Below are positions 36,623 through 57,582 of a stretch of DNA of 64,000 bases, piece after piece. The position numbers and the translations under genes were made by a program. The stretch covers positions 2,748-66,747 of the forward strand of contig JAUYKI010000017.1 in the NCBI GenBank assembly GCA_030700025.1. Direction: 5' to 3'. This DNA is from a bacterium (GTDB lineage Bacteria; Patescibacteriota; Minisyncoccia; UBA6257; 02-FULL-45-10c). Every line of letters starts with the position of its first letter. The stretch's first letter is position 1. The notes under the pieces are model-generated. The model was given only the letters and a program-made list of their open reading frames with translations. It searched no databases and was not told where the DNA came from.

Positions 36623-36810
36623 AGAAAAGAAACTTTATTCTCCGTAGCGCGGGCTGAGCCTGCCTGCCGGTAGGCAGGGGCTGAGCGGGCAGGGTGTCCC
36701 GCGAAGCGGGACGAGCGAAGCCCGAGACCCAGTGAAAACTTCCCTCACTCTTGTACAAAAGTGAGGGACTGGGAGTTTGAACGGTAGCGGGAGAATAAAG
36801 TTTCTTTTCT
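36623..36810 (-). repeat. GC-rich inverted-repeat-bounded element, copy E2 (inverted relative to E1)
   Basis: AGAAAAGAAACTTTATTCTCC and GGAGAATAAAGTTTCTTTTCT form perfect arms. Homologous to E1, with two nested hairpin insertions (36659-36678, 36741-36768). Its end overlaps the comFC stop codon. Confidence 0.7.
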
Positions 36811-37507
36811 AGCGTGTTTTAGCAATTACCAACGCGATTATTTTTTTGGCGCCGGCGGATTTTAAAGTTTTAGCGGCTTCGCGGATAGTGGCTCCGGAAG
36901 TGTGAACGTCGTCAACGAGAAGGATATTTTTTCCCACTATCAGTTCTGGGTAATTAACCGCGAAGCAGTTAATCACATTTTGCGCCCGTTCTTCATGATT
37001 CTTGGCAAGCGACTGGGTTTTAGTATTTTTAATTCTTTGAATCGGCTCCGTTAAATCTAATTTATAAAAATCAGCAACAATTTTCGCAATCAATTTTGCC
37101 TGATTAAATCCGCGTTCTTTTTCCCGATCTTCGTGAAGCGGGATTGGAACCACGGTAAAATTTCTAATATCTAAATCCAAATTTCTAAGATACGAGACTA
37201 GAATTTCGCCTAATGGCCTTTGAAGCCGCTGCCATTTTTTAAATTTAAATAATTTCAGCAAAGTCCGGATGGAATCGTTATCGTAATTAGTGGCGGCGGC
37301 CAAAAGATAAGGAGAATCTTTATGGCAGACCTTTTTATTATCCGCCAGGCGCAATCCGCAAACCGGGCAAAAAAGCGAAGTATTGAGGCGGATGCCGGCC
37401 CAGCACTCCGGGCAAAGATCGCCTTCAGCGTTTTTTTGGCAGTTTAAGCAGAGCGGAGGAAAGAGGATGTCCCACAGCCAGGTTTTCATTTTTTGGAGAT
37501 AGCTCAT
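36809..37507 (-). CDS. comFC: ComF family protein (double zinc ribbon plus phosphoribosyltransferase domain)
   Basis: CLNC...CPEC...CPVCG zinc ribbons and a PRTase motif ILLVDDVHTSGAT. ATG 37507 preferred over TTG 37543. Confidence 0.85.
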   Translation of the reverse strand: MSYLQKMKTWLWDILFPPLCLNCQKNAEGDLCPECWAGIRLNTSLFCPVCGLRLADNKKVCHKDSPYLLAAATNYDNDSIRTLLKLFKFKKWQRLQRPLGEILVSYLRNLDLDIRNFTVVPIPLHEDREKERGFNQAKLIAKIVADFYKLDLTEPIQRIKNTKTQSLAKNHEERAQNVINCFAVNYPELIVGKNILLVDDVHTSGATIREAAKTLKSAGAKKIIALVIAKTR

Positions 37508-37750
37508 GTCTGTTATACTAATAATAGATTTAGAATAAGGCAATGGATTCCAATAACTAATTTCTAATATCTAATTTCTAATAAAATGACCGAAATCACA
37601 AACCACAAGCACCAAATCACAAACAAGCACCAATGACCAAAATCATAAATTTAAAACCCGTTTGGAATTTCTATTATTTGAATTTAGAATTTGTTTGTAA
37701 TTTGAGATTTGTAATTTGGAATTTTATCAGAAATTGTAAATTGTAAATTT

Positions 37751-38812
37751 ATGTCTTTTTTTGAAAAACTTCTTCATAACAAAACTTATTTCGGCGTGGA
37801 TATCGGCACGACCTCTATTAAAATTGTGGAATTAAAACAGGGAGGCCAGAAGCCGGGCCTGAAAGATTATTGCGTTTTGGAAAGCTACGCGCATCTGGAA
37901 AAATTTAACGCGGCCATTCAAACCAGCAATTTAAAAATGCTGGACCAGAAAACCGCGGAATATTTGAAAACCGCGATTCAGCAGATAGAGTCTAAAGACA
38001 TTGAAGCCATTGCTTCGGTTCCGACTTTTTCCGCTTTTACTACTTTGATTGAAATGCCGGCTATGTCGGAGGCGGATACGAGCAAGGCCATGGCATTCCA
38101 GGTTAGGCAGTATGTTCCTTTGCCGATTTCGGAAGTAACCACCGACTGGATAAAAATTATGGAAAAAAAGGATTCTGCCGGCAATTTAATCCAGCAAGTT
38201 CTGCTGATTTCCATTCCGAATGAAATTATTAATAAGTATAAAAATGTTTTTCAGTTGGCGGGCGTGAAATTAATCGCTTTAGAAGTGGAAGGATTGAGTT
38301 TGGCGCGGGCGCTGACTCTTGGTTCGCCGGAAGTTTCGCTGATTGTGGATATCGGATCCCGGTCTACCAGTATTCTTATCGCCCAAAACGGCTTTTTGAA
38401 GTTTGTCAGCCAGACGGATTTCGCCGGCAGTTCCTTAACGCAGAATTTGGCTGCCGGAACCAGCCTTTCTCCGCAGGAGGCCGAAGAAATGAAACGGCAG
38501 AGGGGCATTGTCTCGGGGGAGTTATCCACACTGCTGATACCGGTGCTGGATGCTATAATAAATGAGACGAGACTAGTCAAGGAAGATTTTGAAAAGAACT
38601 ATAAAGAGCCGGTCCAAAAGCTTATTTTGACCGGAGGCGGGGCTAATCTGAGCGGCATTGAGAAGTACTTTGGCGAGCAATTGGGCTTGCCGGCCGTTAA
38701 GGGCAATCCGCTGTCACGGGTGGATTATCCGGAAGAATTAAACCCCTTGCTTGGAGAATTGAATAATACTTTGGCGATTGCCGCCGGACTCGCTTTAAGG
38801 GATGTACACTAG
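37751..38812 (+). CDS. pilM: Type IV pilus assembly protein PilM (actin-like ATPase fold)
   Basis: YFGVDIGTTSIKIVEL N-terminus, 353 aa, first gene of the pilus cluster. Confidence 0.85.
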   Translation: MSFFEKLLHNKTYFGVDIGTTSIKIVELKQGGQKPGLKDYCVLESYAHLEKFNAAIQTSNLKMLDQKTAEYLKTAIQQIESKDIEAIASVPTFSAFTTLIEMPAMSEADTSKAMAFQVRQYVPLPISEVTTDWIKIMEKKDSAGNLIQQVLLISIPNEIINKYKNVFQLAGVKLIALEVEGLSLARALTLGSPEVSLIVDIGSRSTSILIAQNGFLKFVSQTDFAGSSLTQNLAAGTSLSPQEAEEMKRQRGIVSGELSTLLIPVLDAIINETRLVKEDFEKNYKEPVQKLILTGGGANLSGIEKYFGEQLGLPAVKGNPLSRVDYPEELNPLLGELNNTLAIAAGLALRDVH

Positions 38813-38830
38813 TTAAAAAAATAAATTGTA

Positions 38831-39373
38831 ATGGCGCTATTAAATCAAAAACCAATGGAGCACTACGTGCCGGAAACACCGGTTGCCGGAACACCGTGGC
38901 GCCTTTTTACTTACGCCGGATTGGCATTTTTGGCGTCTTTGTTGATTTATCTGGGATTAAGCATGGGCTATAGCGCTTACTTAAGTTCCCGGATTACCGC
39001 GGTGGAACAGCAATTAAAACAATTGGGAACTTCCATTTCCAAAGAAGATCAGGATAAGTTTGTCCGATTTTATTCCCAGCTGGTTAACTTTAATAAGCTT
39101 TTAGATAATCATATTTTATCCGCCGATACATTTTCTTTATTGGAAAAAAATACCAATCAAAAAGTCCGTTATACTAATTTTGATTTAAAAATTGACGAGC
39201 GGAAGCTTACTTTAGACGGTTCGGCTCTTTCTTATGAAATTTTGGCGCAACAGCTGGCGTCTTTTGCCGCCGATCCCGGCGTAGAGAACTACATGCTTAA
39301 TCAATCGCAAATGAGCGATGGAAGCGTAAAATTCAAGGCGGTATTAATATTAAAAAAGGAAGTTTTAAAATAA
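38831..39373 (+). CDS. pilN: PilN-like pilus assembly protein
   Basis: Single TM followed by a coiled coil. Position after pilM. Confidence 0.55.
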   Translation: MALLNQKPMEHYVPETPVAGTPWRLFTYAGLAFLASLLIYLGLSMGYSAYLSSRITAVEQQLKQLGTSISKEDQDKFVRFYSQLVNFNKLLDNHILSADTFSLLEKNTNQKVRYTNFDLKIDERKLTLDGSALSYEILAQQLASFAADPGVENYMLNQSQMSDGSVKFKAVLILKKEVLK

Positions 39374-39378
39374 GATGA

Positions 39379-57093: not shown

Positions 57094-57098
57094 AGTTT

Positions 57099-57131
57099 AT
57101 TCCCCCTAGACTGCGGTCAGGGGGAATTTTT
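57099..57131 (+). terminator. Intrinsic terminator
   Basis: ATTCCCCCT/AGGGGGAAT stem followed by TTTT. Confidence 0.6.
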
Positions 57132-57146
57132 ATTAGGATAGGTTCT

Positions 57147-57155
57147 TGGTATAAT
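57147..57155 (+). promoter_or_regulatory. Extended -10 (TGGTATAAT), probably giving a leaderless transcript
   Basis: ATG 57163 lies 7 nt after the -10 box, with no Shine-Dalgarno. Confidence 0.5.
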
Positions 57156-57162
57156 TTAAGTA

Positions 57163-57582
57163 ATGAGAAATGAACGCGGGCAGGTAATGCTCTTAACTGT
57201 TTTGCTTTTATCTGGAACTATTTTAAGCGCCACTACCATTGCCGGCTTATTAATGCTTTATCAAATCCGCCAAGCAACGGATATCGCCAATTCTACCAAA
57301 GCTATTTATGCCGCGGACACGGGGATAGAAAGGCGGGTATATGATATTTTTCTGGATCCGGACGGCCTTTGCAGTTTAAGCGAGCCATCGTTAGACGGCA
57401 CTTTAGACAATGGCGCCGCTTTTCAAGTAGCTTGTGATAAGCAAACTCAGACCAACGCTGATGGCAGCAAAACGGAGACTATCACTATCAGATCTACCGG
57501 CAATGCCAATAAAAATTATCGAGCGCTGGAGACGGTTTTGGCTAGAGATATTCCACCTCCGCCGCCTCCACTGGCGCCTTAA
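57163..57582 (+). CDS. PilX-like pseudopilin/minor pilin
   Basis: MRNERGQVMLLTVLLLSGTILSATTIAGLL resembles the PilX N-terminal domain pattern. Confidence 0.55.
   Translation: MRNERGQVMLLTVLLLSGTILSATTIAGLLMLYQIRQATDIANSTKAIYAADTGIERRVYDIFLDPDGLCSLSEPSLDGTLDNGAAFQVACDKQTQTNADGSKTETITIRSTGNANKNYRALETVLARDIPPPPPPLAP

What the first reader, a model, noticed from the sequence alone, without database searches (positions are those of the whole stretch)
36809..57582. Type IV pilus cluster fused to a secreted beta-propeller/B-repeat adhesin island: possible PilY1-analog tip complex
The region runs comFC, pilM-N-O, a small TM protein, pilB, pilT, pilC, pilin and pilD. Three minor pilins are transcribed divergently (46301-47788), only 30 bp from an operon of three large secreted proteins (799, 991 and 548 aa, with 1-3-nt gaps between them). 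These are built from InlB-B-type repeats, an LVIVD-like propeller and two six-bladed Kelch propellers. A beta-barrel-like protein, a YVTN/LVIVD propeller protein and a PilX-like pseudopilin follow. In Pseudomonas and Neisseria the minor-pilin operon encodes PilY1/PilC, a beta-propeller tip adhesin. Here unrelated propeller proteins occupy the equivalent genomic position. In an episymbiotic CPR cell this would be a candidate host-attachment or DNA-uptake apparatus with a non-canonical tip.
Basis: partly seen in the sequence, partly recalled or inferred. Interest (0 to 1): 0.6.

Follow-up and report, generated by a model that had tools for sequence, protein, structure and literature searches.

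The report
Pilus-linked adhesin slot in ultrasmall bacteria
In this ultrasmall (Patescibacteria) bacterium, three large secreted repeat/propeller proteins sit inside the operon for the type IV pilus tip subunits, and the last one carries a short C-terminal tail shared by very different proteins at the same spot in related genomes, so it is a good candidate for a swappable pilus-tip adhesin.

Summary
The gene map is confirmed: comFC, pilMNO, a 96-aa membrane protein, pilBTC, pilin, pilD, three divergent minor pilins, three large Sec-secreted proteins (B-repeats, LVIVD, two six-bladed Kelch propellers), ORF214, an LVIVD propeller, a PilX-like pilin, then ligA.

Slot contents vary widely (275-1549 aa; Kelch, B-repeat, fn3, PKD, Big_2 or nothing known). 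The gene near K almost always ends in a homologous Ig-like domain plus a terminal [KR]-E-[IV]-x-P tail. ORF548 ends …FKDIREILPF.

The propellers are ordinary Kelch, not PilY1-like, and only ORF548 has the tail.

Best reading is a PilY1-like logic with unrelated parts: a variable head, and a conserved C-terminal module docking on K. Docking is inferred, not shown. Cell-surface anchoring unrelated to the pilus, or pilus-driven secretion, remain possible.

The parts
36809..37543 (-). ComFC-like protein (double zinc ribbon + phosphoribosyltransferase). It forms the left border of the conserved frame.
   Evidence: Pfam DZR_2 6.8e-11 and Pribosyltran 1.2e-8. Same position in L083, L085 and L087.
37751..40078 (+). 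pilM (37751-38812), pilN-like (38831-39373), pilO (39494-40078).
   Evidence: PilM_2 9.7e-36 and PilO 1.8e-4. PilN weak, 0.01. 35-65% identical and collinear in relatives.
40102..40392 (+). Conserved 96-aa single-pass membrane protein of the pilus locus.
   Evidence: N-terminal hydrophobic helix. No family hit. 38-67% identical at the same position in L083, L085 and L087.
40517..44557 (+). pilB extension ATPase (40517-42250), pilT retraction ATPase (42285-43352), pilC platform (43349-44557).
   Evidence: T2SSE 1.7e-122 + MshEN; T2SSE 2.7e-47; T2SSF 1.3e-55.
44933..45382 (+). Major pilin (KKG|FTLIE).
   Evidence: N_methyl 2.9e-9. GspG/PilA-type N-terminus.
45390..46175 (+). Prepilin peptidase PilD.
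   Evidence: A24_N_bact 1.6e-24 and Peptidase_A24 5e-13.
46199..46282 (.). Palindrome/hairpins between convergent pilD and minor pilin J. Likely a bidirectional terminator.
   Evidence: Inverted repeats I1 and I11. Terminator-like 13-bp stem at 46254-46282.
46301..46810 (-). Minor pilin J (GspJ/PilW type), 169 aa.
46807..47310 (-). Minor pilin I (PilV/GspI position), 167 aa, KG|EVMVE.
   Evidence: Sequence. Weak PilV TIGR02523 hit, 0.0058. Collinear orthologues.
47282..47806 (-). Minor pilin H (FimU/GspH position), 174 aa, RG|FTIIE.
   Evidence: N_methyl 4.3e-4. Weak GspH N-terminal hit, 3.4e-4. Collinear orthologues.
47797..47825 (+). Best sigma-70-like promoter match in the divergent intergenic region, upstream of orf70 and ORF799.
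   Evidence: TATACA-17-TGnTATAAT, 10/12. Consensus match only.
47837..48049 (+). orf70, a small membrane-helix protein. It may be a split-off N-terminal piece of an ancestral single cargo gene.
   Evidence: 73% identical in L001. Its N-terminal helix resembles the N-termini of ORF991, the L083 1549-aa protein and the L085 260-aa protein.
48077..50476 (+). ORF799: Sec signal peptide, unique ~110-aa N-terminal domain, then 7 or more InlB-type B-repeats. No C-terminal tail.
   Evidence: Flg_new_2 1.3e-44. Repeat motifs. Orthologues in L001 (78%) and L002 (58%).
50478..53453 (+). ORF991: signal peptide, B-repeats, LVIVD-type region, B-repeat, six-bladed Kelch. No tail.
   Evidence: Pfam. Six blades. 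Only 2 full-length homologues among 5.8e9 proteins.
53457..55103 (+). ORF548: signal peptide, six-bladed Kelch, one B-repeat, Ig-like C-terminal domain, C-terminal tail. This is the cargo protein that carries the conserved docking module.
54816..55046 (+). Ig-like C-terminal domain (CTD) of ORF548 (residues 454-530), homologous to the CTDs of the slot proteins of other loci.
   Evidence: Seven strands, pLDDT 71-92. An HMM built from 12 KEVKP-type CTDs hits residues 456-530 at E 2e-5 among 8656 ORFs.
55047..55100 (+). Linker plus terminal tail …AAPGRFQFKDIREILPF, a candidate plug.
   Evidence: No secondary structure, pLDDT 47-58. Tail motif shared with 17 other slot proteins. It is the only such ORF in the 64-kb window.
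55364..56008 (+). ORF214: secreted ~190-aa protein ending …GARYWF. It recurs in the slot of other loci. Role unknown.
   Evidence: Family alignment. No family hit. Flanked by terminator-like and promoter-like sites.
56119..57093 (+). ORF324: secreted single-domain LVIVD/YVTN beta-propeller.
   Evidence: LVIVD 2.7e-11. TIGR02276 4.3e-5. 59% identical in L083, about as conserved as PilM.
57163..57582 (+). Minor pilin K (PilX/PilK/GspK position), 139 aa, RG|QVMLL, with no Glu5.
   Evidence: Its homologue lies directly after J in L087 and about 13 other loci. PilX_N weak in 6/24 members. Invariant G6, Q7, M9, D52 and R120.
57614..59665 (+). NAD-dependent DNA ligase LigA. It forms the right border of the conserved frame.
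   Evidence: Pfam. Follows K in most loci.

Best explanation
This is a type IVa-like pilus locus of a Patescibacteria (Paceibacteria-like) cell. It encodes a complete set of four tip (priming) minor pilins, H, I, J and K.

Between J and K lies a variable 'cargo slot'. In this genome the slot holds orf70, ORF799, ORF991, ORF548, ORF214 and ORF324.

I propose the following.
- ORF548 is exported by Sec.
- It is then captured at the pilus tip through its conserved C-terminal module, an Ig-like domain followed by a flexible linker and the terminal tail …[KR]E[IV]xP(F).
- The most likely mode is the tail adding a strand to the small, Glu5-less tip pilin K. [quoted passage not shown]
- The Kelch and B-repeat parts of ORF548, and perhaps the co-translated ORF799 and ORF991, form the exchangeable ligand-binding head used to grasp a host cell or substrate. 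PilT-driven retraction then pulls on it.

Shown:
- the gene identities
- the H-I-J-[slot]-K frame across many genomes
- the GspJ fold of J
- the shared C-terminal domain and tail on otherwise unrelated slot proteins
- the tail being unstructured in the model

Inferred:
- that K is the tip-most pilin
- that the tail binds K
- that ORF799 and ORF991 join the complex
- that the function is adhesion
For: 1. Frame. comFC|pilMNO-orf96-pilBTC-pilA-pilD-H-I-J-[slot]-K-ligA is found in L083, L085, L087 and dozens of metagenome loci.

2. K directly follows J in about 14 loci. In the window and L083 the large proteins are inserted between J and K. In L002 pilD, H, I, J and the two large genes (the contig ends in a third, ORF548-like one) are all on one strand. 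The linkage therefore survives the inversion seen in the window, L001 and L085.

3. The window has exactly five prepilin-type proteins. Only K lacks Glu5, as is established for GspK and PilX/PilK. J has a GspJ/XcpW/EpsJ fold.

4. Tail motif.
- 18 of 744 distinct ORFs in K-anchored loci end in E[IV].P.{0,3}, and all 18 lie in the slot.
- In 16 of about 40 informative loci a tail-bearing ORF lies within 2.2 kb upstream of K, and in 11 of the 16 within about 400 bp; in one of them (L104) it lies upstream of J rather than between J and K.
- In unrelated loci the motif occurs in 2 of 4097 ORFs. In the 64-kb window it occurs once.

5. The C-terminal domains are homologous (HMM E 2e-5 for ORF548, 5.6e-6 for the L083 1549-aa protein). 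The passenger parts differ: Kelch, Flg_new_2, fn3, PKD, Big_2 or none.

6. In the ORF548 model the C-terminal domain is a confident beta-sandwich. The last 18 residues are unstructured with low pLDDT, like the PilC plug modelled alone (bioRxiv 10.64898/2026.09.18.752573).

7. Cargo diverges faster than the machinery. ORF991 is 67% and ORF799 78% identical to L001, against 85-90% for the minor pilins. Cargo is about 30% identical to L083/L085, against 72% for PilB.

8. Precedent. In Saccharibacteria TM7x a propeller-bearing tip-pilin candidate, PilX2, is needed for host binding (PMC11623550).
Against: - No interaction was computed or measured; co-folding was not possible with these tools.
- Only ORF548 carries the module. 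ORF799 and ORF991 have no recognisable docking feature.
- About a third of related loci have an empty slot, so the cargo is dispensable for the pilus.
- All loci surveyed were chosen because they contain K. I cannot exclude tail-bearing proteins elsewhere in these genomes, which would make the module a general surface anchor.
- No co-variation between tail sequence and the C-terminus of K was discernible.
- K has no significant match to PilX/GspK structures or sequences, and its PilX_N hits are sub-threshold.
- Terminator-like and promoter-like sites between ORF548, ORF214 and ORF324 suggest several transcription units (weak evidence).
- The EILPF-type C-terminal domain is rare: 3 clusters among 1.84e9 representatives.
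Confidence: 0.45

Rival explanations
1. General surface-protein island. The slot between the minor pilins and ligA is simply a recombination hot spot where these bacteria keep fast-evolving surface adhesins. The Ig-like C-terminal domain plus tail is a cell-envelope (wall or S-layer) anchoring or sorting signal unrelated to the pilus. It might work with the ORF214 barrel-like protein.
For: - Slot content is extremely variable and sometimes includes non-surface genes, e.g. peptidase-like and membrane proteins in L093, L097 and L133.
- About 14 loci have no cargo.
- ORF214-like proteins co-occur with tail-bearing genes in 5-6 loci.
- Terminator-like and promoter-like sites separate the units.
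- The Ig-like domain type is widespread in large surface proteins of many bacteria.
Against: - The tail-bearing gene lies within 0-3 genes of K, and is usually its immediate upstream neighbour.
- The insertion point lies within the H-I-J-K operon rather than after it.
- The tail lacks the hydrophobic helix and basic end that define sortase- or exosortase-type signals.
- No other tail-bearing ORF exists in the 64-kb window.
Confidence: 0.3
2. Pilus-driven secretion (T2SS-like, or like T4b TcpF/CofJ). The H-I-J-K tip binds the C-terminal module and pushes the cargo through the wall or S-layer, releasing it rather than displaying it.
For: - J is structurally closest to T2SS GspJ/XcpW/EpsJ.
- The minor pilins give weak pseudopilin hits.
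- Cargo proteins are Sec-exported non-pilins carrying a shared terminal signal.
- T4b pili are described as recruiting non-pilin cargo at the tip for secretion.
Against: - A PilT retraction ATPase and a normal major pilin are present, as expected for a true extending and retracting pilus.
- The passenger domains (Kelch, B-repeat, Ig, fn3, PKD) are typical binding modules, not enzymes.
- No evidence of release.
Confidence: 0.15
3. Chance neighbourhood. The large proteins have nothing to do with the pilus and are adjacent only in this lineage.
For: Full-length ORF991 homologues are known from only two other contigs.
Against: - Linkage is kept in L001, L002, L083 and L085 despite an inversion and gene fusion or splitting.
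- The shared tail and C-terminal domain occur at the same slot in 16 loci with unrelated passengers.
Confidence: 0.05

Closest known systems
PilC/PilY1 tip adhesin of diderm type IVa pili (Neisseria, Pseudomonas, Myxococcus)
   Same: - A large non-pilin protein with a Sec signal peptide.
- Encoded within the core minor-pilin operon.
- A variable presumed ligand-binding part combined with a conserved C-terminal part.
- A short, unstructured extreme C-terminus. In PilC this docks on PilK by strand addition.
   Different: - No PilY1 beta-propeller domain.
- Here the propellers are six-bladed Kelch domains and belong to the variable part.
- The conserved part is an ~80-aa Ig-like domain plus a [KR]E[IV]xP tail.
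- The gene lies before K, not after it.
- The cargo is absent from many related loci, so it is not needed for pilus biogenesis.
- The organism is presumably monoderm and has no secretin.
PilX2 of Saccharibacteria TM7x (T4P-2), PMC11623550
   Same: Also a Patescibacteria type IV pilus. It is a tip-protein candidate with a beta-propeller and a non-canonical signal peptide, and it is required for host binding.
   Different: - PilX2 is described as a pilin-like protein with the propeller (seven-bladed, RCC1) fused to it.
- Here the pilin (K, 139 aa) and the propeller proteins are separate polypeptides with ordinary Sec signal peptides.
- The propellers here are Kelch/LVIVD.
Modular minor pilins of monoderm T4aP (Streptococcus sanguinis PilB/PilC), PMC8179133
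   Different: In those proteins the module is covalently fused to a pilin. The window proteins have no pilin N-terminus.
T2SS pseudopilin tip GspH-I-J-K, and the T4b minor-pilin/cargo pairs (TcpB-TcpF, CofB-CofJ)
   Same: - A four-member H-I-J-K set, with K lacking Glu5.
- J has the GspJ fold.
- Non-pilin cargo is recognised at the tip through a terminal peptide.
   Different: - PilT and a true pilin are present.
- K is far smaller (~130 aa) than GspK.
- The cargo signal is C-terminal rather than N-terminal as in CofJ.

Membership tests
PilC/PilY1 (IPR008707 / Pfam PilY1-type propeller) | Conserved C-terminal PilY1-type beta-propeller domain. | tested here: not met
PilC/PilY1 (IPR008707 / Pfam PilY1-type propeller) | Large non-pilin protein with a type I (Sec) signal peptide. 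| tested here: met
   N-termini read directly: positively charged start, hydrophobic core, A-x-A-type site. No G|F..E prepilin motif. No signal-peptide predictor was available.
PilC/PilY1 (IPR008707 / Pfam PilY1-type propeller) | Encoded with the core minor pilins. | tested here: met
   Located between J and K. Linkage conserved in L001, L002, L083 and L085.
PilC/PilY1 (IPR008707 / Pfam PilY1-type propeller) | Last ~12 residues form a plug that adds a strand to PilK. | tested here: inconclusive
   A conserved, unstructured C-terminal tail exists. Binding to K could not be modelled or measured.
PilC/PilY1 (IPR008707 / Pfam PilY1-type propeller) | Calcium-binding loop in the propeller. | not tested
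   No PilY1-type propeller is present to inspect.
Core minor pilins H-I-J-K (GspHIJK / FimU-PilVWX / PilHIJK) | Prepilin leader ending in Gly; Glu5 in H, I and J, absent in K. | tested here: met
   RG|FTIIE, KG|EVMVE, RG|FTIVE and RG|QVMLL. G6, Q7 and M9 are invariant in 24 K homologues.
Core minor pilins H-I-J-K (GspHIJK / FimU-PilVWX / PilHIJK) | J has the GspJ/PilW fold. | tested here: met
Core minor pilins H-I-J-K (GspHIJK / FimU-PilVWX / PilHIJK) | K belongs to the PilX_N / GspK type. | tested here: inconclusive
   No PDB sequence match. PilX_N hit in 6/24 homologues, best E 0.0028, below threshold. Position after J and lack of Glu5 agree.
Core minor pilins H-I-J-K (GspHIJK / FimU-PilVWX / PilHIJK) | Collinear H-I-J-K gene order. 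| tested here: met
   Contiguous H-I-J-K in L087, L120, L123, L138, L150, L161, L163, L167 and others.
Modular (bimodular) minor pilins | Binding module fused to a pilin module in one polypeptide. | tested here: not met
   ORF799, ORF991 and ORF548 start with Sec-type signal peptides. K is only 139 aa and has no extra domain.
Sortase / exosortase-type C-terminal sorting signals | Motif followed by a hydrophobic helix and a basic tail. | tested here: not met
   The proteins end 0-3 residues after the E[IV]xP motif (up to 7 in the E-C-x-P variants of L101 and L118), with no hydrophobic segment.
Kelch six-bladed beta-propeller | Six Kelch repeats forming one propeller. | tested here: met
Outer-membrane 8-stranded beta-barrels (for ORF214) | Match to an OMP barrel family, or a barrel fold. 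| tested here: inconclusive
   No Pfam/NCBIfam hit for six family members. Only a C-terminal …RYWF and an alternating pattern.

The most novel reading that the evidence does not exclude
Paceibacteria-like Patescibacteria possess a previously unrecognised class of Sec-exported, non-pilin pilus-tip cargo proteins.
- The class is defined by an Ig-like C-terminal domain and a terminal [KR]-E-[IV]-x-P plug.
- The plug docks by strand addition onto a miniature Glu5-less tip pilin (K).
- This would be an independent, PilY1-like tip-display system in monoderm ultrasmall bacteria.
- The head (Kelch, B-repeat, fn3, PKD…) is swapped between lineages and may set host range.
Probability: 0.3. Interest if true: 0.8.

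Novelty: new variant of a known kind. Interest (0 to 1): 0.62.

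Why it matters
Patescibacteria make up a large share of bacterial diversity. All cultivated members live attached to other microbes, and how they recognise hosts is largely unknown. 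Type IV pili are the one attachment device shown to matter, in Saccharibacteria.

A conserved cargo slot inside the tip-pilin operon has three consequences.
- It gives a sequence rule for finding candidate host-recognition proteins in thousands of uncultured genomes. The rule is a common C-terminal module on otherwise unrelated secreted proteins.
- It predicts a specific, testable tail-to-K contact.
- It would challenge the current view that monoderm type IVa pili lack PilY1-type non-pilin tip proteins and rely only on modular pilins.

Tried and rejected
- Exact look-up of ORF991 and of P0001 in the contig index: not on record.
- Genome-contig scan with the ORF991 alignment: the tool chose B-repeat patterns and returned only generic InlB-B-repeat proteins from many phyla. 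These were useful only as a negative control for the tail motif.
- Word-indexed search with the three EILPF-type C-termini: found only generic Ig-like domains without tails.
- Full HMMER search with ORF548 residues 436-548: the Ig-like domain is a common tandem repeat. Only three clusters share the whole C-terminal module.
- K-family profile against PDB sequences: nothing.
- Pfam/NCBIfam on ORF214 and five relatives: nothing.
- Looked for co-variation between tail type and the C-terminus of K: none visible.
- Considered the propellers as PilY1 homologues: rejected.
- Considered a sortase-like signal: rejected, because there is no hydrophobic segment after the motif.
- Co-folding was not possible, because only single window proteins can be submitted.

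Full report

Pfam identifies the following:
- a ComFC-type protein
- PilM and PilO (the latter weak)
- PilB with its MshEN domain
- PilT and PilC
- a pilin and PilD

PilN is only a weak match. It is conserved in place in all relatives, as is the 96-aa single-helix membrane protein.

Three divergently oriented ORFs carry prepilin N-termini.

The three large ORFs are separated by 1 and 3 nt and begin with Sec-type signal peptides.
- ORF799 is a string of InlB-type B-repeats behind a unique N-terminal domain.
- ORF991 combines B-repeats, an LVIVD region and a six-bladed Kelch propeller.
- ORF548 is a six-bladed Kelch, one B-repeat and a C-terminal region without any Pfam match.

ORF324 is an LVIVD/YVTN propeller. 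ORF214 and ORF139 match nothing.

One detail needs correcting. The 30-nt divergent gap is to a conserved 70-aa ORF (47837-48049). The 799-aa gene starts 270 nt away.

**Organism.** NCBI labels the contig only as 'bacterium' (MDP3999736.1 and neighbours). The third minor pilin has more than 637 homologues. Those that carry names are 'Candidatus Paceibacterota' or 'Patescibacteria group'. Related loci come largely from groundwater small-filter fractions, judging by contig names. The CPR assignment is therefore reasonable, but it was not tested phylogenetically.

**Synteny.** ORF991 has only two full-length relatives among 5.8 billion proteins.
- The closer relative (L001, 67%) copies the window's arrangement.
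- In the more distant one (L002, 42%), pilD, the three minor pilins and the large genes all lie on one strand. The adjacency has therefore survived an inversion.

Contexts of minor-pilin homologues, and a metagenome scan seeded with ORF139, gave about 90 further loci.

My ORF/BLAST survey shows a general frame: comFC | pilMNO-orf96-pilBTC-pilA-pilD - H - I - J - [slot] - K - ligA.

The ORF139 homologue (K) directly follows J in about 14 loci, for example L087, L120, L138, L161 and L167. In the window and in L083 the large proteins, ORF214 and ORF324 are inserted between J and K.

**Identity of the pilins.**
- The window contains exactly five prepilin-type proteins.
- PilA, H, I and J have Glu5. 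K (RG|QVMLL) does not. From established knowledge of GspK and PilX/PilK, this marks the tip-most subunit.
- An AlphaFold model of J built from 112 homologues is confident (pLDDT 88.5).
- K has no PDB sequence relative.
- K gets only sub-threshold PilX_N hits, in 6 of 24 homologues. Its assignment rests on position, the missing Glu5 and a conserved N-terminus.

**The new element.** The slot is hypervariable. Its proteins range from 275 to 1549 aa and contain Kelch, B-repeat, fn3, PKD or Big_2 domains, or nothing recognisable.

Yet the gene nearest K almost always ends the same way. It has an Ig-like domain (…T.Y.LTC.N.DG…) followed by a short linker and a terminal [KR]-E-[IV]-x-P, with 0-3 further residues. 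Examples:
- …VPGVKEVKP
- …NIKYREIRP
- …PAIIEVIP
- …WDKIKEIIPF
- ORF548: …FKDIREILPF

Statistics for the motif:
- It closes 18 of 744 distinct ORFs in K-anchored loci, and all 18 are in the slot.
- It closes 2 of 4097 ORFs in unrelated control loci.
- It closes one ORF, ORF548, in the whole 64-kb window.
- A tail-bearing ORF lies within 2.2 kb upstream of K in 16 of about 40 informative loci, and within about 400 bp in 11 of them.

Homology and structure of the C-terminal module:
- An HMM built from twelve KEVKP-type C-terminal domains finds ORF548 residues 456-530 at E 2e-5 among 8656 ORFs. It finds the 1549-aa L083 protein at 5.6e-6.
- In the ORF548 model the domain is a confident seven-strand sandwich. 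The last 18 residues are unstructured.
- The EILPF subtype is rare: three clusters among 1.84 billion representatives.

The resemblance to PilC/PilY1 lies elsewhere:
- a Sec-exported non-pilin
- encoded inside the core minor-pilin operon
- a variable head
- a conserved C-terminal part ending in a short disordered tail

[quoted passage not shown] It adds a strand to PilK and suffices for tip localisation. The preprint also states that monoderm T4aP lack PilC/PilY1 and use modular pilins instead.

In Saccharibacteria TM7x, a propeller-bearing pilin-like protein, PilX2, is required for host binding. The present system would be a third solution, with a separate cargo and a small K pilin.

**Mechanism proposed.** The steps, all inferred, are:
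1. Sec export of ORF548.
2. Capture at the H-I-J-K tip through the C-terminal domain and tail.
3. The Kelch and B-repeat head, possibly with ORF799 and ORF991, binds a host or substrate.
4. PilT retracts the pilus.

The faster divergence of cargo than of machinery fits a recognition role.

**Weak points.**
- No interaction test was possible.
- Only ORF548 has the module.
- Many loci lack cargo.
- The survey is anchored on K, so a genome-wide role of the module as a surface anchor is not excluded.
- No tail/K co-variation was seen.
- Consensus scans suggest separate transcription units for ORF214 and ORF324.

**Rivals.**
- A surface-protein island with an envelope-anchoring signal (0.3).
- Pilus-driven secretion of the cargo (0.15).
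- Chance (0.05).

**Verdict.** The conserved cargo slot and the C-terminal tail form a new variant of the tip-adhesin theme and give concrete, testable predictions.

Noticed in passing
L002 1354-2238; proteins P0046, P0054, P0098, P0110, P0114, P0130, P0156; L099 6434-7339: Homologues of minor pilins J and I are repeatedly gene-called as in-frame fusions with a small upstream ORF. That ORF is either PDDEXK_3 (PF13366) or a '23S rRNA-IVS four-helix-bundle' type (PF05635/PF22296). It looks like recurrent insertion of small selfish genes at the same intergenic point of the minor-pilin operon.
   Followed up: no
window 55364-56008 (ORF214); L083 15293-15910; L093 4880-5434; L097 9279-9896; L098 3150-3749; L091 1718-2362: A family of secreted ~190-aa proteins with an alternating hydrophobic pattern and a C-terminal …G(I/L)RYWF. 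This resembles the end of outer-membrane 8-stranded barrels, yet the bacteria are presumed monoderm. The genes are always in the cargo slot, usually right after a tail-bearing gene. No family match.
   Followed up: partly
window 47837-48049 (orf70): A 70-aa ORF conserved in L001 (73%). Its N-terminal helix resembles the N-termini of ORF991, the L083 1549-aa protein and the L085 260-aa protein. This suggests the three-gene set arose by splitting and expansion of one large cargo gene like that of L083.
   Followed up: partly
K homologues in L087, L116, L125, L148, L161, L164, L167: A K variant with an extra Cys-bounded loop (…VGCAGA…C.R..NRSLQLFF) occurs only in loci without tail-bearing cargo (7 of 24 against 0 of 16). 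The sequences are related, so this is not an independent count. The loop could fill the site that the cargo tail would otherwise occupy.
   Followed up: no
window 46199-46282: A 30-nt palindrome and a 13-bp-stem hairpin lie between the convergent ends of pilD and minor pilin J, at one border of the inverted H-I-J block. A 29-nt imperfect inverted repeat (47788-47816 / 48048-48076) brackets orf70 at the other border.
   Followed up: partly
L090 7235-8098; L093 9017-9940; L168 550-1560: Cargo proteins built from repeats of the form GYAWSxNxGWIxF, with no Pfam match. They end in the same C-terminal domain and tail.
   Followed up: no
L087 11113-13827: In a locus with contiguous H-I-J-K, the space between K and ligA holds two Cys-rich low-complexity secreted proteins (GDN and GGSP repeats) and a 428-aa HExxH protein. 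All three share the same N-terminus, MPKKKNN(K/Q)QAFWI.
   Followed up: no
L083 and L085 (both from assembly GCA_040961635.1): One MAG assembly carries two complete, about 70% identical copies of the whole comFC-pil-minor-pilin locus with different cargo sets. Either the bin mixes two strains or the genome has two paralogous pilus loci.
   Followed up: no
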